From: an uncultured Candidatus Saccharibacteria bacterium
GTDB taxonomy: Bacteria > Patescibacteriota > UBA1384 > XYA2-FULL-43-10 > 1-14-0-10-43-13
Assembly (NCBI GenBank): GCA_964406145.1
Contig: CAYOQP010000001.1
Location: 7,706-71,705, forward strand
DNA: 64,000 nucleotides
Direction of reading: 5' to 3'
This document shows positions 9,351 to 61,473 of this stretch, piece by piece; the stretch's first letter is position 1; the number at the start of each line of letters is the position of its first letter. Below the pieces are notes generated by a model. That model did no database searches. It saw only the letters and a list, made by a program, of their open reading frames with translations, and was not told where the DNA came from. A program made the translations under genes and the position numbers.

Positions 9351-10595
9351 CTAGTTTTTGAAAATTCCCTTTCGATGCAATGTTCTATAATATGCGATGG
9401 CGAATCGGTGAGATTCATCACGGGCCGAGATGGCAATATCTTTGAGAGATTTTGTATGATTGAAATATTCAGCAATCTTTAAATCTCCGTAATGAAAATC
9501 ATTTTTTGATCTATCTGGTCCTTTGGAAATGGAAATAACTGGAATCGATATTTTTTTTGAATCAAGTACTTTTTTAGCGACATTGAGATGATTGACCCCT
9601 CCATCGATTATAATAAGATCAGGAAAGGGCCAATCATTGTCAAATCTCCTCATCAAAACTTCTTCCAGACGCTCGAGATCACTTTTCTGTTCGCCTTTGA
9701 TCTTAAATTTTCGATACTCATCGACGGATTTTTTGCCATCTTCAAAGACGATCATAGAGCCGACAGAGTATTTATCGCCAATATTTGAAATGTCATAACA
9801 TTCTATCCGCTTAAATGTATCTTCGTGTTTTTCGACAAAATCGTCTCTTAGACCTATCGCCACATCTGAGAGATGTTTCAAAGCCATCAATTGATTGCGG
9901 ATATTCGCCGCCATCTCAAAATTGCGATTTTTACTATAGTTCAACATCTCCTTTTCTAGAGACTTCATTACTTCGCCCTTGCGGCCCTTAAGGAAATTTT
10001 TGAGATATTTAATGTTTCTATTATATTCTGCCTTATTAACATAGCCGACACACGGGCTTGTACAGACCCTTATGTCGCCATAGATACAAGAGCGATTTTT
10101 CTTTTTATAGCTATTGAATTTTGTCTTGGCGCAATCTCTATAAGGAAAAACTTTACGCAAAAAACTCAATGATTTCTTAAGTAATTCTCCAGCTGGGTAT
10201 GGACCAAAATAAAAAGCATTTTTATCCTTCAAATCGACATTTTTAAATCGCTCAAGAGAGATGATCGGGAAATCTTCCTTCGAGATCTTGATCATCAGGA
10301 ATGATTTGTCATCTTTGAGACGAACATTGTACTTGGGTTTTAATTTTTTAATCTGCTCGGCCTCGAGAATCACTGCCTCAATCTCTGACTCTGTCTCGAT
10401 CCACTCAATATCAGTGGCCAACCGGACCATTTGCTCAATGGCTGGACCGCGTCCGAGATCACGCGGCACAAAATATTGCTTCAATCTGTTCTTGAGATTC
10501 TTGGCTTTGCCAATATACAAAATCGCACCTTTTTCATTGAGAAAGCGATAAACACCAGGAACAGCGGGTATAATTTTAGATTGCAATATATTCAT
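9351..10595 (-). CDS. uvrC: Excinuclease ABC subunit C family protein, short form apparently lacking the C-terminal (HhH)2 domain
   Basis: 414 aa. N-terminal GIY-YIG (GVYRF...ILYIGKAKNL), then Cys-rich and UvrC core, ending in the conserved RDESHRFAI..YHR motif. Confidence 0.7.
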   Translation of the reverse strand: MNILQSKIIPAVPGVYRFLNEKGAILYIGKAKNLKNRLKQYFVPRDLGRGPAIEQMVRLATDIEWIETESEIEAVILEAEQIKKLKPKYNVRLKDDKSFLMIKISKEDFPIISLERFKNVDLKDKNAFYFGPYPAGELLKKSLSFLRKVFPYRDCAKTKFNSYKKKNRSCIYGDIRVCTSPCVGYVNKAEYNRNIKYLKNFLKGRKGEVMKSLEKEMLNYSKNRNFEMAANIRNQLMALKHLSDVAIGLRDDFVEKHEDTFKRIECYDISNIGDKYSVGSMIVFEDGKKSVDEYRKFKIKGEQKSDLERLEEVLMRRFDNDWPFPDLIIIDGGVNHLNVAKKVLDSKKISIPVISISKGPDRSKNDFHYGDLKIAEYFNHTKSLKDIAISARDESHRFAIAYYRTLHRKGIFKN

Positions 10596-10649
10596 ATTTA
10601 CTATTATACAGTATCGGGGAACAGAGACATGATCTTTGTTCCCCGAAGG

Positions 10650-11204
10650 TTAGCGCCGGATTTTGGAATAGCGTTTCCTCTCGGCAAAGCGAGACTCGCC
10701 GATTCCGGTATCCGAGCGCAAGAAGTCGCCCATGACTCCAACGGATACCCCGAACATCTCACGCAGAACGTAGTAACTCGTGACCATGCCCTCGCCACGT
10801 CTCAGCTGCTCCATTTCGACAAGCACATAGTCGCGTAGCCTTTCGAGCTGATCCATGGGATACTTTTCCCAGCCTCTGGCGCGGAGCGGACCAGAGCGAG
10901 AAGTACCTTTGGGTTTAGCAGGCCCAGGCCGCGATGTCGGTTTCATCGGTTTGCCGGATCGAACTGCTGGCACATCATGCGGAAGGCCAGTGAGGCGCCT
11001 CCATTCCGGTTTCTCCGATTCTCTCAGTCGGGCCTCTAGTAGTCGAGCGACAAAAGCCGCATCCATGGCAAACTGTCTTGCCAGATCTTCGCATCCCGGT
11101 ATATACCGTCCAACTTTGATGCGTCGACGTACGAACTGCATCAAAGAATGACAAGCCTTGTCAGGATACTGCGAAAAGTCGGCGGATGTGTCTGTAGTAG
11201 TCAT
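10650..11204 (-). CDS. Hypothetical protein on GC-rich island 1, with a possible HTH segment
   Basis: 184 aa ORF, GC about 60% against an AT-rich backbone. Own SD GAGGAGG 11 nt upstream of the ATG. Upstream TTGAAA / ATAGTG promoter-like elements. Putative HTH CEDLARQFAMDAAFVARLL. No recognisable family. Confidence 0.4.
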   Translation of the reverse strand: MTTTDTSADFSQYPDKACHSLMQFVRRRIKVGRYIPGCEDLARQFAMDAAFVARLLEARLRESEKPEWRRLTGLPHDVPAVRSGKPMKPTSRPGPAKPKGTSRSGPLRARGWEKYPMDQLERLRDYVLVEMEQLRRGEGMVTSYYVLREMFGVSVGVMGDFLRSDTGIGESRFAERKRYSKIRR

Positions 11205-11272
11205 TCTTCGACATTCCTCCTCAAGATTTGTATTTGCACTATACCATGTTTTCTATTTTTTTCAAGGAGTTG

Positions 11273-11301
11273 TTGACTCTAATTAGTCTTTCTGGTAGTA
11301 T
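11273..11301 (+). promoter_or_regulatory. Sigma70-like promoter for the plus-strand island 1 gene
   Basis: TTGACT (11273-78), 17-nt spacer, TAGTAT (11296-301), in an AT-rich divergent intergenic region. Confidence 0.4.
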
Positions 11302-11357
11302 ACTTTCATGTTTTTGACACGCAAAAAAAAGCAAGACATCATTAAGTCATTCGGCTA

Positions 11358-11429
11358 CGGGCCAGCTTTTTAGTGCAGTACAAAAACGTGCGCTTGAAGG
11401 AACTGGCCTCCGGGCCAGATTTTTTTTTG
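11358..11429 (+). promoter_or_regulatory. Leader attenuator-like element with an intrinsic terminator hairpin, T-run, and a possible upstream anti-terminator copy
   Basis: CTGGCC-TCCG-GGCCAG hairpin (11404-11419) followed by TTTTTTTTT. The upstream segment CGGGCCAGC (11358-66) can pair alternatively with CTGGCC. It lies between the promoter and the SD of the 11499 ORF. Confidence 0.4.
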
Positions 11430-11498
11430 TTTATCCAGGGGAAAATTCCTACATCATTCCCTGTAATAGACAAAATACCTTGAGGAGGTACACACGTC

Positions 11499-11891
11499 AT
11501 GGTCACTGCTCTTTCGAGCCGCAACACCTTGGCGGGCAAAAAACCCGTCAGCATGACACCAGAAGAGTTGATCAGCCTGGTGGCGGAAGCACCGCTCCAG
11601 TGGTCAAGCTCGCACATCGCCGCTGCCACTATCCTCGGCTGTATGCTCGCGGAAGAAGGTGGCTTTGCCGACACGATCAAGCAGACGCCGCAAGCTCTCG
11701 CGAACATCGCCCGCTGTCGGCGCCTTCACCCCGGAGTTCGCGACACCGCCCTCCTGATCCTCACCCAGCACGAAGGAGAAGGGGCCACGGCCCCTGACAA
11801 CCGCTTTGCGCGGGGATTCGAGCGCCGCCAGAAGCTTCGGACCAAGAAGCCCAAGGCCTGCGGCGGGCCAGTTCCCTGCTTCATCCAGTAG
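11499..11891 (+). CDS. Hypothetical protein on GC-rich island 1
   Basis: 130 aa ORF, GC about 62%. Strong SD GAGGAGG 9-10 nt upstream of the ATG. Basic C-terminus. No recognisable family. Confidence 0.4.
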   Translation: MVTALSSRNTLAGKKPVSMTPEELISLVAEAPLQWSSSHIAAATILGCMLAEEGGFADTIKQTPQALANIARCRRLHPGVRDTALLILTQHEGEGATAPDNRFARGFERRQKLRTKKPKACGGPVPCFIQ

Positions 11892-11918
11892 TGCGCTTAA
11901 AGCGCCACAAGTTCAGAA

Positions 11919-11947
11919 ACGCCTCAGTGCAATGCACTGAGGCGTTC
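11919..11947. terminator. GC-rich perfect inverted repeat at the right edge of island 1, between convergent genes
   Basis: AACGCCTCAGTGCA / TGCACTGAGGCGTT, 14-bp arms. A second small palindrome GCGCTT-A-AAGCGC lies at 11892-11904. No T-run. Confidence 0.35.
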
Positions 11948-11957
11948 CCTGTTTAAA

Positions 11958-19501: not shown

Positions 19502-19515
19502 ACCTGATCATAAAT

Positions 19516-19544
19516 AAAAGACCCCGATTAATCGGGGTCTTTTA
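19516..19544. terminator. Bidirectional rho-independent terminator between the convergent prmC and htrA
   Basis: AAAAGACCCCGA-TTAA-TCGGGGTCTTTT perfect hairpin flanked by an A-run and a T-run. Confidence 0.7.
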
Positions 19545-19567
19545 TTTATACATTCAGTATCTTCTAA

Positions 19568-30177: not shown

Positions 30178-31092
30178 TTACGATATTAAACTGGCGACTT
30201 CCCGAAGGTTGTTCCAGCCCTTTCGTAAACAAATAAAGTCGTGAGCGGTCAAATTGTTCCGCCTTTCGACAATAGAGAAATCTGCCTCGCCACTAGCATC
30301 AACCAGTAGATATAGGAGATCGCGATAGATCTCTTTGGAGACAGAGAGCATATCTTCGAGCGAACAAGGGATATCGCCCAAGATAGGCTCGTTCTCTACT
30401 CGGTGGTAGGTGGGACGACGACCGATTGGAGTAAACAGTTGGTGGCTTTGCCAACGAGAGTGTTCTCCCATTTTGGCCAAAACACGTCTAGCCTCGTAGA
30501 AGATTTCCTCCGCTGCGCCTCCGACCATAATCACTTCGTCCCAGTTTTCCGCCCCATCAACCTGGAGAGGACGGCGGCCGATCAGCGCAGAGAGTGGATC
30601 GCGCATATACCAAGCATGAGAAGCCATGTATTTAAGCGCTTCCCATCCGCCCCTGCGCTCAGCAAACTGCTTGATGCGGTCCCCTCCGTGCTGGGAAAGA
30701 TAGCTAGCCATTTCATCGATCATCAGCCACTCATCAGCCAATATCGGGCGATCGCGCAGGATTCGAACGGGCGCGTTGGGGTGGAAATTGGCGACATACG
30801 CTTCGAGGTATCGAATCGCTCGGTCGGCGAAATCCGCTACGAATGGCTCGAACCCCTGGCCAAGCAGAAGGGACGAATAGTTTTCCGCGAAATAGAATTC
30901 GACATCTGCTTTTGCTTTGTCATCAGCCATTTCACGAAGAAGTGCCAGAGCCGGTATAATATATGCAGGAAGCCGAACCGGCACCTCGCAGTTGGGATCG
31001 CAACCGAAACCGGTTACGATAATGGTCCTTCCGTTAAGACGGACAGGACGGGTATCCTTGGCGAAAAGGAATTTCGGGATGTTAAGGAGCAT
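30178..31092 (-). CDS. Hypothetical protein of unknown function. GC-elevated terminal gene of the yerC-like / dapF-like operon.
   Basis: 304 aa ORF, about 50-55% GC against about 35-40% in its flanks. SD GGGAGG 8 nt upstream of the ATG. Own terminator. No recognisable motif. The antisense frame is also open, consistent with high GC. Confidence 0.5.
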   Translation of the reverse strand: MLLNIPKFLFAKDTRPVRLNGRTIIVTGFGCDPNCEVPVRLPAYIIPALALLREMADDKAKADVEFYFAENYSSLLLGQGFEPFVADFADRAIRYLEAYVANFHPNAPVRILRDRPILADEWLMIDEMASYLSQHGGDRIKQFAERRGGWEALKYMASHAWYMRDPLSALIGRRPLQVDGAENWDEVIMVGGAAEEIFYEARRVLAKMGEHSRWQSHQLFTPIGRRPTYHRVENEPILGDIPCSLEDMLSVSKEIYRDLLYLLVDASGEADFSIVERRNNLTAHDFICLRKGWNNLREVASLIS

Positions 31093-33683: not shown

Positions 33684-35171
33684 GTGTTAAACACCCCCGC
33701 CGTTAATCTCGGCATCGTTGGCGTCAGCCGGGATTGCTTCCCGATCGAACTGACCCGGACCCGTCTCGGCCAGTTGGCCGAAGCCTGTGGCGACCATGCC
33801 ACCCCGTTCACCACGATCATCGAGAGCGAACGCGATGTCGCATCTGTCCTCAAAGAGGCGCATGATCTCGGCACCAACGCGATCGCGATCTATCTCGGCA
33901 ACTTCGGCCCCGAAGGCCCACTGTCCCTCCTCGCCGAAAAGTTCGGTGGCCCCGTCATGATCTGTGGCGCCGCCGAAGAGAGCATGCACACCCTGATCCA
34001 GGGTCGTGGCGATGCCTTCTGTGGCATGTTGAACGCGCACTACAATCTCGGACTGCGCCGGAAGCGCGTCCACACCCCGCAGAATCCCGTGGGCCTGCCT
34101 CACGAACTGGCGATTGAGATCGCCCACTTCATCAAGGTCGCCCGCGTCGCCCTCGGCATGAAAAGCCTCAAGGTCTTCGGATTCGGCCCGCGGCCCCAGG
34201 ACTTCCTGGCCTGCAACGCGCCGATTCAGCCGATCTACAACCTCGGCATCGAGATCATGGAGAACAGCGAGCTCGACCTCCTGAGGCTCTACAAAGCCGT
34301 CGATGAGAACGATCCTGAAATCGCAGTGATCGCCGAAGACATGGCTGCCGAACTGGGCCAGGGTAACACCTACCCCGACCTGTTGGCCAAGCTGGCCCGT
34401 TACGAACTGGCACTGTCCCGCTTCTTCGACGCCAACCTCGGCATGAGCAACTATGCCGTGATGGCCGACAAGTGCTGGCCGGCCTTCGAGGCCGAATTCG
34501 GCTTCGTCCCCTGCTACGTCAACAGCCGCTTCGCCAAGCGCGGCATTCCCATCGCTTGCGAAGTGGACGTCTACGGCGCGATCAGCGAGTATATGTGCCA
34601 GCTCGCGAGCCTCGCACCAGCGACCCTGCTGGACATCAACAACACCGCCCCGACCGATTTGTTGGCCAAGCTCGGCCGCAACTTCGATCCGGGCAACTTC
34701 TGGATGGGTTTCCATTGCGGCAATACCCCGTCCTGCCAGATGAAGAGCTGCGCTATGGCCTACCAGCTCATCATGAATCGTCTGATGGAAGGTGGCAACA
34801 CGCCCGACATCACCCGCGGTACCCTGGAAGGCCAGCTTCGCCCCGGCGCGGCAACGATCTTCCGCCTGCAAGGGACATCGGACAACTATCTGGCCAGCTA
34901 CATGGCGGAGGGCGAGATCGTCGATCTCGATCCCATGAGCTTCGGCGGCATCGGAGTCTTTGAGATTCCCGACTTCGCCCGCTTCTACCGCCACGTCCTT
35001 TTGAGTCTGCGTTTTCCGCATCACACCGCCGTGGCCTTCGACCACTGCGGCGAGGTGCTCTATGACGCGACGAAGATGCTCGGCCTCGCCAACATCTTCA
35101 CGCCGAACCCGGCGTCGATCCCCTACGAGCGCGAGAACCCGTTCTCCCTCGCCCGGATCAGCGGCAAGTAA
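33684..35171 (+). CDS. L-fucose/L-arabinose isomerase-family (COG2407-like) sugar isomerase, on GC-rich island 3
   Basis: 495 aa, about 62% GC, GTG start. N-terminal VNLGIVGVSRDCFP...AIYLGNFGPE pattern of FucI-like proteins. Central acidic metal-site candidates CEVDVYGA. Antisense frame fully open, a GC artefact. Confidence 0.5.
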   Translation: MLNTPAVNLGIVGVSRDCFPIELTRTRLGQLAEACGDHATPFTTIIESERDVASVLKEAHDLGTNAIAIYLGNFGPEGPLSLLAEKFGGPVMICGAAEESMHTLIQGRGDAFCGMLNAHYNLGLRRKRVHTPQNPVGLPHELAIEIAHFIKVARVALGMKSLKVFGFGPRPQDFLACNAPIQPIYNLGIEIMENSELDLLRLYKAVDENDPEIAVIAEDMAAELGQGNTYPDLLAKLARYELALSRFFDANLGMSNYAVMADKCWPAFEAEFGFVPCYVNSRFAKRGIPIACEVDVYGAISEYMCQLASLAPATLLDINNTAPTDLLAKLGRNFDPGNFWMGFHCGNTPSCQMKSCAMAYQLIMNRLMEGGNTPDITRGTLEGQLRPGAATIFRLQGTSDNYLASYMAEGEIVDLDPMSFGGIGVFEIPDFARFYRHVLLSLRFPHHTAVAFDHCGEVLYDATKMLGLANIFTPNPASIPYERENPFSLARISGK

Positions 35172-60633: not shown

Positions 60634-60656
60634 AGGCGGCCCGTCATGGGCCGCCT
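60634..60656 (-). terminator. GC-rich terminator hairpin overlapping the cdsA stop codon
   Basis: On the minus strand: AGGCGGCCC-ATGAC-GGGCCGCCT (9-bp perfect stem) followed by a T-rich tract. Confidence 0.5.
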
Positions 60657-61473
60657 AGAATCCGATCAAGCGGAAGAGAAGGTAAGCAACAGGAGCAGCA
60701 TAGATCATGCTGTCCAGTCTATCAAGCATTCCGCCATGGCCGGGGAAAATCCCTCCGGAATCCTTTTTGTGAAGATTCCGCTTCAGGAGCGATTCGACCA
60801 AGTCTCCGACCTGGCCAAAGACTCCAACGACTGGGCCCAATAGGACCAAAGTCGCTTTGTGTAGTAAGATGGCAAACACTGCCGCCATCAAGATCGCCGC
60901 TACGAAGCCAGCAACACAGCCGCCCACGGTCTTGCCAGCACTGATGTCTGGGCAAAGCTTGGCAGTCTGCAGTTTCCTGCCGATCAGGTAAGCGAAGATG
61001 TCTGTCGCCCAGATCGTAAAGAAAAAGGCGACCACGAGCATTGAGCCCGTACCGGTCTGAAAACCGAAGACAATACTCTCGCCCGGAATGGCACGGATTG
61101 CGGCGATAAAGCTCGGCAGTAATCCGATATACAGAACTAGCCTGACAGGATTGTCGGCCTTTAGGGCCAACTTACCCAGTACCAGTTCACCCCCAAGAGC
61201 CATCATAGTCACCAAAGCCGACAGGACAAGAACCACTTCGAAGCCACCAGTGATACAGGCATAACTAGTTGCATAAGCCGCAACGACAGTTATGACCGAG
61301 AACAACTTGATCGTCTCCGATTGACCTGCCATGTCGCAGTACTCGCTCACCATCATGACGACAGTGATGGCTATAAGAGCCAGAAAGAAATCTTGGTTAC
61401 CCAAGAATATTGATGCCACAGTTAGGGGGATCCCGATAACTGTGACGACTAATCTTGCCAGAAAAGTCTTCAT
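60655..61473 (-). CDS. cdsA: Phosphatidate cytidylyltransferase (CDP-diglyceride synthase), on GC-rich island 4
   Basis: 272 aa polytopic protein. C-terminal signature KRNLHKKDSGGIFPGHGGMLDRLDS. GC clearly elevated against both flanks. Confidence 0.85.
   Translation of the reverse strand: MKTFLARLVVTVIGIPLTVASIFLGNQDFFLALIAITVVMMVSEYCDMAGQSETIKLFSVITVVAAYATSYACITGGFEVVLVLSALVTMMALGGELVLGKLALKADNPVRLVLYIGLLPSFIAAIRAIPGESIVFGFQTGTGSMLVVAFFFTIWATDIFAYLIGRKLQTAKLCPDISAGKTVGGCVAGFVAAILMAAVFAILLHKATLVLLGPVVGVFGQVGDLVESLLKRNLHKKDSGGIFPGHGGMLDRLDSMIYAAPVAYLLFRLIGF

What the first reader, a model, noticed from the sequence alone, without database searches (positions are those of the whole stretch)
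10612..11950. GC-rich island 1: two divergent unknown genes with their own AT-rich promoters, identical SD sequences and a leader attenuator
A segment of about 1.3 kb at roughly 60% GC sits between uvrC and proS in a backbone of about 35-40% GC. It carries a 184-aa ORF (minus strand, possible HTH) and a 130-aa ORF (plus strand). They are transcribed divergently from a short AT-rich spacer holding two sigma70-like promoters. Each is preceded by the identical SD GAGGAGG, and GC-rich hairpins sit at both island edges. Neither protein matches a family recognisable by eye. The gene signals fit the host genome while the coding sequence fits a high-GC donor, which argues for recent horizontal acquisition of a small regulator plus effector module.
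Basis: partly seen in the sequence, partly recalled or inferred. Interest (0 to 1): 0.6.

Follow-up and report, generated by a model that had tools for sequence, protein, structure and literature searches.

The report
Conserved GC-rich gene pair with attenuator
The GC-rich "island" is not a recent foreign insert but an old gene pair specific to one group of Patescibacteria (a predicted DNA-binding protein and a small helical protein); the second gene sits behind a previously undescribed, strongly conserved leader that looks like a ribosome-sensing transcription attenuator.

Summary
Two real genes lie between uvrC and proS in a ~39% GC Patescibacteria backbone: A (184 aa, GC3 0.55) and B (130 aa, GC3 0.75). 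The divergent promoters, the identical GAGGAGG sites, the edge hairpins and a leader terminator are all present.

The "recent HGT" reading fails.
- Orthologous or analogous pairs occupy the same proS–uvrC slot in at least 10 related lineages (ProRS 62–95% identical).
- A's 4-fold sites have diverged as much as those of its neighbours. dN/dS is 0.07–0.10 for A and 0.13–0.72 for B (0.21–0.38 among the close orthologues).
- The raised GC3 persists across saturated synonymous divergence.
- No homologue exists outside this clade, and none in phages or plasmids.

The most interesting part is the 190-nt leader of B.
- The –10 box lies 6 nt before an AUG in seven of the nine loci, and 5 and 9 nt before it in the other two.
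- That AUG opens a 20–22 codon leaderless ORF with a Lys-Lys(-Lys) run, ending …P-A/D-F-stop.
- The ORF's 3′ end can pair with the 5′ arm of an intrinsic terminator.
- This layout is kept in 9 loci, with compensatory changes, even where the B proteins are no longer alignable.

Function of A (tandem HTH-like domains) and B (ARM/HEAT-like helices) is inferred only.

The parts
10603..10610 (-). Extended -10 box (TGTATAAT) of uvrC, 7 nt before the uvrC ATG. There is no SD, so uvrC is probably leaderless. This marks the left boundary of the island.
   Evidence: Read from the sequence. Conserved in L004 and L001.
10615..10645 (-). GC-rich hairpin just after the stop codon of A (CGGGGAACA...TGTTCCCCG), with no U tract. 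It is probably the 3' end or a stabiliser of the A transcript.
   Evidence: RNAfold gives -23 kcal/mol. It is conserved in L004 and L001 with paired changes (GGGGAACA/TGTTCCCC becomes GGGAAACA/TGTTTCCC) and with G-U pairs.
10650..11204 (-). Gene A, 184 aa. It has two HTH-like four-helix domains (residues 15-72 and 111-182) joined by a disordered Pro/Lys/Arg-rich linker. Predicted to bind DNA. It belongs to a clade-restricted family of tandem HTH-like repeats that, in every locus examined, lies directly upstream of uvrC.
11216..11222 (-). SD GAGGAGG of A, 11 nt before the ATG.
   Evidence: The 11-nt spacing is kept in L001 and L002.
11238..11265 (-). Promoter of A: TTGAAA, 16 nt, TATAGT, with a TG extension.
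   Evidence: This stretch is nearly identical in L001, L004, L005 and L007, and the hexamers are kept in L006 and L002.
11273..11301 (+). Promoter of the B leader: TTGACT, 17 nt, TAGTAT, with a TG extension. The -10 box ends exactly 6 nt before the leader AUG.
   Evidence: The -35/17 nt/-10/6 nt/ATG geometry is kept in window, L004, L005, L007, L006, L002 and L099, although the hexamer sequences differ.
11308..11373 (+). Leaderless leader ORF of 21 codons: MFLTRKKKQDIIKSFGYGPAF*.
   Evidence: The start, the reading frame and the stop position are kept in 9 loci representing about 7 lineages. Lengths are 20-22 codons and all indels are multiples of 3. A Lys-Lys(-Lys) run sits at codons 6-9 in 7 of the 9 loci (at codons 3-4 in L009; Arg-Lys in L020). 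The C-terminus is [GRW]-[PS]-[AD]-F.
11323..11332 (+). Segment 1: the A-run (AAAAAAAAGC), which is also the Lys codons. It can pair with GCUUUUU of segment 2.
   Evidence: RNAfold of each of 8 leaders predicts this pairing.
11360..11370 (+). Segment 2: GGCCAG-CUUUU, the last codons of the leader ORF. It forms the 5' strand of the antiterminator.
   Evidence: RNAalifold consensus, per-sequence folds and hand pair counts.
11372..11394 (+). Small hairpin enclosed by the antiterminator (AGUGCA...UGCGCU). Its base overlaps the stop codon.
   Evidence: Compensatory changes occur in L009 (AGUAUU/AAUACU), L020 and L002.
11396..11408 (+). Segment 3: GAAGG-AA-CUGGCC. It pairs either with segment 2 (antiterminator, -14 to -25 kcal/mol) or with segment 4 (terminator).
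11403..11428 (+). Intrinsic terminator: CUGGCC-UCCG-GGCCAG followed by U9.
   Evidence: A stem plus U6-9 is present in all 9 leaders. In L099 the closing pair changes from C-G to U-A, a change on both sides.
11425..11475 (+). Post-terminator hairpin H5, which uses the terminator's U tract. The outer stem is UUUUGUUUAU/AUAGACAAAA and the inner stem is CAGGGGA/UUCCCUG.
   Evidence: The inner stem has a different sequence in L009, and the outer stem is compensated in L020.
11482..11488 (+). SD GAGGAGG of B, 10 nt before the ATG.
11499..11891 (+). Gene B, 130 aa. It is all-helical and looks like an ARM/HEAT repeat, with a basic C-terminal tail and a CGGPVPCF end.
11918..11946 (.). Perfect 14-bp hairpin (AACGCCUCAGUGCA/UGCACUGAGGCGUU) between the convergent genes B and proS. 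It is probably a shared terminator.
   Evidence: Conserved in L004, L005 and L007. L006 and L002 have hairpins of different sequence at the same place.

Best explanation
**What it is.** The segment is an old, vertically inherited locus specific to one clade of Patescibacteria (CPR). The nearest public genomes are labelled Berkelbacteria or 'Saccharibacteria' MAGs. It holds two divergently transcribed genes.
- A is a DNA-binding-type protein built from two HTH-like helical domains. It is made from its own promoter, directly upstream of uvrC.
- B is a small alpha-helical-repeat protein.

**How B is probably controlled (inferred).**
1. Transcription starts at or next to an AUG, so the mRNA is leaderless. 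That AUG opens a 21-codon ORF.
2. The last codons of the ORF (GGCCAG-CUUUU) can pair with GAAGG..CUGGCC and form an antiterminator.
3. A ribosome that reaches the stop codon masks that strand. CUGGCC then pairs with the downstream GGCCAG, and the U9 terminator stops transcription before B.
4. A ribosome that stalls earlier, most plausibly on the conserved Lys-Lys(-Lys) codons in the A-run, leaves the antiterminator free. RNA polymerase then reads through into B.

**Composition.** The GC-rich, host-atypical codon usage of A and B is a long-maintained property of these genes. It is not the trace of a recent transfer.

**Shown.** Both ORFs are coding. Synteny and co-divergence with the neighbours hold. 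The leader ORF and the alternative helices are conserved with covariation. No homologue exists outside the clade.

**Inferred.** The transcription start site, translation of the leader ORF, the signal that is sensed, DNA binding by A, any A-B functional link, and the reason for the GC bias.
For: **Coding status**
- Changes concentrate at third codon positions. dN/dS is 0.07-0.10 for A and 0.13-0.72 for B (0.21-0.38 among the close orthologues).
- No alternative reading frame stays open across the orthologues.

**Vertical history**
- A and/or B lie between proS and uvrC in L001, L002/L003, L004, L005, L006, L007 and L099/L100.
- Distant A-family genes fill the same slot in L011, L012, L015, L020 and L097.
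- Divergence at 4-fold sites between the window and L004 is 0.425 for A, 0.496 for proS, 0.455 for rseP and 0.493 for frr.
- GC3 of the slot genes exceeds that of proS in 11 of 13 loci.

**Restricted distribution**
- 4 to 6 hits in 5.8 billion protein clusters.
- About 9 real relatives in 1.84 billion representatives.
- Nothing in phages, plasmids or IMG/VR.

**Attenuator**
- The spacer is 91-95% identical between the window and L004, L005 and L007, although 4-fold sites of the neighbouring genes differ at about 45-50%.
- The leader ORF frame and stop position are kept in 9 loci.
- The -10 box lies 6 nt before the ATG in 7 of 9 loci.
- The terminator, the antiterminator, the 1:2 pairing and hairpin H5 are predicted in each sequence.
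- RNAalifold independently picks the antiterminator.
- Wobble-compatible or compensatory changes occur in every helix.
- A covariance model built without L020, L009 or L099 finds L020 at E 7e-9 and L099 at E 1.6e-8. It finds no other copy in 1 Mb of related DNA.
- The window's leader folds better than its shuffles, with z = -3.3.
- The genome uses hairpin-plus-U terminators elsewhere, for example 19510-19549.

**Protein folds**.
Against: - There are no transcript or ribosome data. The start site is inferred only from promoter geometry.
- The leader peptide's middle part is poorly conserved. Position 18 varies G/W/R, and its changes are not biased toward synonymous ones. The constraint could therefore be mainly on the RNA.
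- The Lys codons coincide with an A-run that also has a pairing role. In L020 the run is Arg-Lys.
- Nothing links B to lysine or to translation.
- There are only about 7 independent lineages, so the covariation statistics are thin. The GGCCAG/CUGGCC core is almost invariant.
- The cause of the GC bias is not explained.
- The lower 4-fold divergence in B could also reflect recombination among close relatives.
Confidence: 0.65

Rival explanations
1. Recent horizontal acquisition of a regulator plus effector cassette from a high-GC donor.
For: The composition and codon usage are strongly atypical. Other GC-rich genes occur in the same window, including a Fucose_iso_C gene with GC3 0.83. The proS-uvrC slot varies in content among relatives.
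Against: Orthologues lie in the same slot in sister lineages and have co-diverged with the flanks. No homologue exists outside the clade. There is no integrase, tRNA gene, direct repeat, or phage or plasmid match. The AT-rich regulatory spacer is the most conserved part.
Confidence: 0.04
2. Ancient acquisition, or de novo origin, at the base of this clade. The GC-rich codon usage was then kept by selection, by biased gene conversion, or by repeated recombination with GC-richer relatives. This is compatible with the best explanation and concerns origin only.
For: GC3 stays raised across saturated dS. The excess is moderate in distant members and extreme in the window's subclade. Some relatives have genomes of about 50% GC (L013). 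B shows lower divergence at 4-fold sites.
Against: No donor is identifiable, and no test here separates selection from biased conversion.
Confidence: 0.3
3. The leader is an attenuator driven by a protein or a small ligand (riboswitch-like, or bound by A or B) rather than by a translating ribosome. The short ORF would then be incidental.
For: The middle of the peptide is poorly conserved, while the RNA helices and H5 are well conserved. B has a basic tail and a helical-repeat fold, and such folds can bind RNA.
Against: The ORF's start, frame and stop position are kept through indels that are all multiples of three, in about 7 lineages. The promoter-to-AUG geometry is fixed. No conserved unpaired core that could form an aptamer is visible, and the 50 nt upstream of segment 2 vary freely. 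Rfam gives no match.
Confidence: 0.17
4. The promoter, short ORF and terminator form an independent small gene (a micropeptide or sRNA), and B is transcribed separately.
For: The unit from promoter to terminator is complete in itself. L001 keeps the promoter and the start of the ORF after losing B.
Against: No conserved promoter lies between the terminator and B. The ATG-to-ATG distance of the leader is constant at 186-207 nt, and the element always accompanies a B-slot gene. It is absent where only an A-family gene is present (L011, L012, L015, L097). The terminator overlaps an alternative helix.
Confidence: 0.08
5. Artefact: a chimeric assembly, or a GC-rich non-coding or structured-RNA region wrongly read as ORFs.
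For: None beyond the composition break.
Against: Independent assemblies share both junctions. The substitution pattern shows codon periodicity. Rfam and tRNA scans are negative.
Confidence: 0.01

Closest known systems
Ribosome-dependent (leader-peptide) transcription attenuators of amino-acid operons, such as trpL, hisL, pheL and thrL. The comparison rests on established knowledge; see also PMC3082878 and 10.1101/864512 for descriptions.
   Same: A short ORF lies in the 5' leader. Four segments can form 1:2, 2:3 (antiterminator) and 3:4 (terminator plus U tract). The ORF's stop lies inside segment 2. A short run of identical codons sits in segment 1.
   Different: The leader ORF has no SD and apparently starts at the transcript's 5' end. 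The controlled gene is not a biosynthetic gene but an orphan helical-repeat protein. The organism is a CPR bacterium. An extra conserved hairpin reuses the U tract. Which amino acid is sensed, if any, is not established.
Leaderless polycysteine short ORFs that act as Cys-responsive attenuators in mycobacteria (Canestrari et al., bioRxiv 10.1101/834739).
   Same: A leaderless short ORF is the first cistron. Ribosome stalling on a codon run is proposed to remodel downstream RNA structure and switch on the next gene.
   Different: According to that paper's abstract, the stalled ribosome unmasks the ribosome-binding site, which is control of translation. Here the alternative structure is an intrinsic terminator, which is control of transcription. 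The codon run here is Lys, not Cys, and there is no metabolic link.
Antibiotic-inducible leader-peptide attenuators (erm, yxjB and ABC-F types; for example PMC6851288).
   Same: A short leader ORF sits upstream of a terminator/antiterminator switch, and the controlled gene is unrelated to amino-acid biosynthesis.
   Different: No resistance-type gene lies downstream, no known arrest motif is present, and the ORF is leaderless.
Small HEAT/ARM-repeat proteins (Pfam HEAT_2, PF13646).
   Different: B itself has no Pfam match, even at E 10. A profile comparison of B with the L009 protein is negative. Foldseek is not significant.
Tandem HTH or homeodomain/Myb-like DNA-binding proteins, and sigma-70 regions 3/4.

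Membership tests
Leader-peptide transcription attenuator (trp/his type) | A short translated ORF within the 5' leader of the regulated gene | tested here: inconclusive
   A 20-22 codon ORF with conserved start, frame and stop position is present in 9 loci. Translation itself is not shown.
Leader-peptide transcription attenuator (trp/his type) | Mutually exclusive antiterminator and terminator helices that share one strand, with the ORF's end inside the antiterminator's 5' strand | tested here: met
   Predicted in every sequence. RNAalifold picks the antiterminator. Pair tables show wobble or compensatory changes.
Leader-peptide transcription attenuator (trp/his type) | An intrinsic terminator (GC stem plus U tract) upstream of the structural gene | tested here: met
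   Window 11403-11428. A stem plus U6-9 is present in all 9 leaders.
Leader-peptide transcription attenuator (trp/his type) | A run of codons for the amino acid whose supply is sensed, matching the operon's pathway | tested here: inconclusive
   Lys-Lys(-Lys) is present in 8 of 9 leaders, at codons 6-9 in seven of them. The run coincides with a pairing A-run, and B has no known link to lysine.
Leaderless short-ORF attenuators (mycobacterial Cys type, 10.1101/834739) | The transcript starts at the AUG of the short ORF | tested here: inconclusive
   The -10 box ends 6 nt before the ATG in 7 of 9 loci, and no SD is present. No 5'-end data are available.
Leaderless short-ORF attenuators (mycobacterial Cys type, 10.1101/834739) | A polycysteine tract, and sequestration of the ribosome-binding site as the output | tested here: not met
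   There is no Cys run, and the switch here is a terminator. Only a weak hairpin covers the SD, and it is not conserved.
Known riboswitch or RNA-leader families (Rfam 15) | A match to a curated covariance model | tested here: not met
   No hit at gathering thresholds across the window. Only chance-level hits appear in 11180-11520.
Recently acquired genomic island | Atypical base composition and codon usage | tested here: met
Recently acquired genomic island | Absence from close relatives, with an empty site in sister genomes | tested here: not met
   Present in all the closest relatives found, with ProRS 77-95% identical. The site is empty only in some more distant genomes, L008, L010 and L019.
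Recently acquired genomic island | Mobility signatures (integrase, tRNA target, flanking direct repeats) or homologues in a donor, phage or plasmid | tested here: not met
HTH transcription factor families (Pfam/NCBIfam) | A sequence match to a curated HTH family | tested here: not met
   No hit for A at E <= 10. The fold-level resemblance is weak.
HEAT_2 (PF13646) | A sequence match above the gathering score | tested here: not met
   B has no hit. Only the non-alignable B-slot protein of L009 reaches 27.8 bits against the 27.7 cut-off.
Anti-phage defence systems (PADLOC) and phage proteins (PHROGs) | A match to a defence or phage protein model | tested here: not met

The most novel reading that the evidence does not exclude
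The locus carries the first ribosome-dependent transcription attenuator seen in the Candidate Phyla Radiation. It would be a leaderless-ORF plus intrinsic-terminator switch, more conserved than the protein it controls. It would report translation status, either Lys-tRNA supply or ribosome progress, to a clade-specific pair of proteins: a tandem-HTH protein and a HEAT-like protein. The host-atypical GC-rich codons of both genes would be held by selection at synonymous sites rather than by foreign origin.
Probability: 0.4. Interest if true: 0.62.

Novelty: new variant of a known kind. Interest (0 to 1): 0.5.

Why it matters
- **Gene regulation in CPR bacteria.** Patescibacteria are uncultivated, reduced symbionts, and almost nothing is known about how they regulate genes. 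A conserved cis-regulatory leader that can be modelled (R1) gives a concrete element. It can be tested in metatranscriptomes or in a surrogate host. It also suggests that leaderless translation and classic attenuation both operate in this phylum.
- **A caution for HGT calls.** A sharp GC and codon-usage island can be an old, vertically inherited locus whose composition is actively maintained. This matters for compositional HGT detectors applied to MAGs.
- **Two orphan families.** These families are pinned to a fixed slot next to uvrC and proS. They are candidates for lineage-specific regulators.

Tried and rejected
- **Protein family searches were empty or at chance level for A and B:** Pfam, PHROGs, NCBIfam, PADLOC and PDB sequence searches.
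- **The AFDB fold library was not available**.
- **Foldseek of B against PDB was not significant**.
- **Mobile-element searches found nothing:** phage and plasmid BLAST, and IMG/VR scans.
- **The GTDB pattern scan for A found nothing**. A tblastn of the fetched proS loci later showed a 40%-identical A gene in L011.
- **Two metagenome pattern scans for the leader gave little.** The first returned nothing. The second returned one true hit, L091, which is the L020 contig, plus chance matches.
- **An overlapping or antisense gene as the cause of high GC is rejected.** No alternative frame stays open in all orthologues.
- **RF1-specific sensing at an invariant UAG is rejected.** L099 ends its leader ORF with UAA.
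- **The A-3' inverted repeat as a LexA/Cheo-type box is rejected.** The spacing is wrong (GAAC-N15-GTTC), and G-U pairs point to an RNA hairpin.
- **A palindromic operator GACT-N6-AGTC in the spacer is not conserved** beyond the closest relatives.
- **Internal duplication of A's two domains has only weak support.** hhalign gives E 0.002 and probability 14%, and BLAST finds nothing.
- **No paralogue of A, B or the leader exists elsewhere in the window**.
Full report
**1. The observation**

The segment 10612-11950 is 53.7% GC in a window that averages 40.9%. The excess lies in two ORFs.
- A (10650-11204, minus strand, 184 aa) has GC 55% and GC3 0.55.
- B (11499-11891, plus strand, 130 aa) has GC 63% and GC3 0.75.
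- The 294-nt spacer between them is 39% GC.

Backbone genes have GC3 of 0.29-0.46 with a median of 0.36. A CAI-like index based on backbone genes gives 0.59 for A and 0.53 for B, against 0.716 +/- 0.023 for the backbone.

The flanking genes are uvrC (GIY-YIG, UVR and UvrC_RNaseH domains) and proS (class II tRNA synthetase core plus anticodon-binding domain).

- Two back-to-back sigma70-like promoters.
- The shared CTTGAGGAGG ribosome-binding sites.
- A hairpin-plus-T9 terminator inside B's leader.
- Hairpins at both edges of the island.

The SD-to-ATG gaps are 11 and 10 nt, whereas host genes place the SD core 4-6 nt from the start.

**2. Are these genes real, and how old are they?**

Searches of 5.8 billion protein clusters found only 4 relatives of A and 5-6 of B. 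Every one of them lies in the same place, between proS and uvrC, inside the conserved block rpsB-tsf-pyrH-frr-rseP-proS | uvrC-tpiA-gap.

Codon alignments show that changes concentrate at third positions. dN/dS is 0.07-0.10 for A and 0.13-0.72 for B, with the close orthologues at 0.21-0.38. Both are therefore protein-coding and under purifying selection. No alternative frame stays open in all orthologues.

Between the window and L004, 4-fold sites differ as follows:

| Gene | 4-fold divergence |
|---|---|
| A | 0.425 |
| proS | 0.496 |
| rseP | 0.455 |
| frr | 0.493 |
| B | 0.266 |

A has thus diverged together with its neighbours.

GC3 of A stays at 0.49-0.59 in five lineages. These include L001 and L002, whose dS against the window is 1.3 to more than 3. 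If this composition were a decaying foreign signal under the host's AT bias, it should have largely vanished over that distance. This is an inference. I therefore read the GC bias as maintained, not recent.

**3. The wider clade**

The nearest species representatives are Patescibacteria MAGs, variously labelled Berkelbacteria or Saccharibacteria, with ProRS 62-81% identical to the window's.

In their proS-uvrC junctions I found the following.
- L008, L010 and L019 have an empty site.
- L011 has a 306-aa A homologue (40% identical).
- L097 has a 300-aa one.
- L012, L015, L020 and L099 have longer proteins (295-530 aa) built from repeated HTH-like modules. BLAST links L012, L015 and L020 to one another in a chain (L015 to L020 at 1e-46, L020 to L012 at 1e-9); L012 links only weakly to A (E 0.003 against a nine-sequence database) and to the L099 protein (E 2e-5).
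- L009, L020, L002 and L099 have small helical proteins in the B position.

A profile search of 1.84 billion representative proteins returned only about 9 genuine A relatives. None has a curated domain. One (P0016) scores just below the Sigma70_r3 cut-off.

GC3 of the slot genes exceeds that of proS in 11 of 13 loci, most strongly in the window's own subclade. No phage, plasmid, IMG/VR, PADLOC or PHROGs relation was found.

**4. The leader of B**

The spacer is the best-conserved part of the locus. It is 91-95% identical between the window and L004, L005 and L007. It is still recognisable upstream of the B-slot genes of L006, L002, L020, L009 and L099, whose proteins are 51%, 34%, not alignable, not alignable and 36% identical to B.

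The common plan has five parts.

(i) *Promoter geometry.* A -35/17 nt/-10 promoter has its -10 box ending exactly 6 nt before an ATG in seven of the nine loci. The gap is 5 nt in one and 9 nt in the other. No SD is present, which implies a leaderless start.

(ii) *A short ORF.* The ORF has 20-22 codons, and all length differences are multiples of three. The peptides are:
- window: MFLTRKKKQDIIKSFGYGPAF
- L006: MFLIHDKKQDIKSKVIGPAF
- L002: MLLFDIKKQLQKWMSAGSAF
- L020: MNLCIRKVGKVDFLAKRPAF
- L009: MLKKSKINAIIVPPMKTGWPDF
- L099: MIFGCIKKKVGFLLGRGPAF

(iii) *An antiterminator.* The ORF's last codons (GGCCAG-CUUUU) pair with GAAGG..CUGGCC and form a helix of -14 to -25 kcal/mol that encloses a small hairpin.

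(iv) *A terminator.* The same CUGGCC pairs with a downstream GGCCAG, followed by U6-9, at -6 to -12 kcal/mol.

(v) *A 1:2 pairing and hairpin H5.* An A-run containing the Lys codons can pair with the U-run of segment 2. A further hairpin, H5, reuses the U tract.

Independent support comes from several directions.
- RNAalifold chose the antiterminator on its own.
- Changes in the shared strands are wobble-compatible in both alternative helices (L002, L006). In L099 the closing terminator pair changes from C-G to U-A.
- The enclosed hairpin and H5's inner stem change sequence but keep their pairing.
- A covariance model built from six sequences finds the L020 and L099 leaders, which were not used to build it, at E 7e-9 and 1.6e-8. 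It finds L009 weakly (E 0.05) and nothing else in 1 Mb of related DNA or elsewhere in the window.
- Rfam has no match.

**5. Mechanism (inferred)**

This is the layout of a ribosome-dependent transcription attenuator. A ribosome that reaches the stop codon covers segment 2, so the terminator forms. A ribosome held on the early Lys-Lys(-Lys) codons covers segment 1 and frees 2:3, which lets RNA polymerase read into B.

The start at the transcript's 5' end recalls the leaderless Cys attenuators of mycobacteria (10.1101/834739). According to that paper's abstract, however, those act by unmasking a ribosome-binding site, not through a terminator.

Several points weaken this reading.
- The middle of the peptide is not conserved, and residue 18 varies G/W/R.
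- The Lys codons double as a pairing element.
- B has no visible link to lysine.
- There are no expression data.

An attenuator driven by a protein or a ligand, using the same helices, remains possible.

A search of the held literature did not turn up a description of leader-peptide attenuation in CPR bacteria among the top results. That shows absence in this library only.

**6. The proteins**

My working model is that A is a DNA-binding regulator acting on the shared promoter region, and possibly on uvrC. That promoter region is nearly invariant even in L001. B would be a helical-repeat partner or effector made only when the attenuator is read through. All of this is inference.

**7. Verdict**

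The regulator-plus-effector idea is plausible, and the leader attenuator is supported. The core claim of recent horizontal acquisition is not supported.

What remains of interest is threefold:
- a new, well-conserved leaderless-ORF/terminator attenuator in a phylum where gene regulation is essentially uncharted;
- two orphan families fixed in one genomic slot;
- a compositional island that has been maintained over long evolutionary time.

Noticed in passing
window 33684-35171 (+): A 495-aa ORF with an L-fucose isomerase C-terminal domain (Pfam E 6e-20). Its GC is 62% and GC3 is 0.83, the most extreme compositional outlier in the window. It is a better candidate for genuine HGT than island 1.
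   Followed up: partly
window 30178-31092 (-): A 304-aa ORF with GC3 0.55 and no Pfam match. This is another GC-rich orphan, lying next to ligA.
   Followed up: partly
window 60655-61473 (-): A 272-aa CdsA-type cytidylyltransferase (Pfam CTP_transf_1, E 6e-46) with GC3 0.60. This is a housekeeping-type gene with the same foreign-looking composition, so GC-rich genes in this genome are not only orphans.
   Followed up: partly
window 9351-10610 (-): uvrC is short (414 aa). It has an extended -10 box (TGTATAAT) 7 nt before its ATG and no SD, so it is likely translated from a leaderless mRNA. The arrangement is conserved in L004 and L001.
   Followed up: partly
L001 7316-8236; L012 7285-9915; L018 7167-11956: The proS-uvrC junction is a variable slot in this clade. 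In L001 a GGDEF gene replaces B, and the leader's promoter and first codons survive as a remnant. L012 and L018 carry other cargo, and L008, L010 and L019 have empty sites.
   Followed up: partly
window 19510-19549: A perfect 20+20 nt palindrome (ATAAATAAAAGACCCCGATT/AATCGGGGTCTTTTATTTAT) lies between convergent genes. It is probably a bidirectional intrinsic terminator, which shows that this genome uses hairpin-plus-U terminators.
   Followed up: no
window 11216-11222 and 11482-11488: Both island genes place their SD 10-11 nt from the ATG, whereas host genes use 4-6 nt. The long spacing is conserved for A in L001 and L002, and it may keep translation of both proteins low.
   Followed up: partly
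window 11499-11891 compared with L004 1094-1495: B's 4-fold degenerate sites have diverged about half as much as those of neighbouring genes (0.27 against 0.46-0.50). This points to constraint at synonymous sites or to recent recombination among close relatives.
   Followed up: partly
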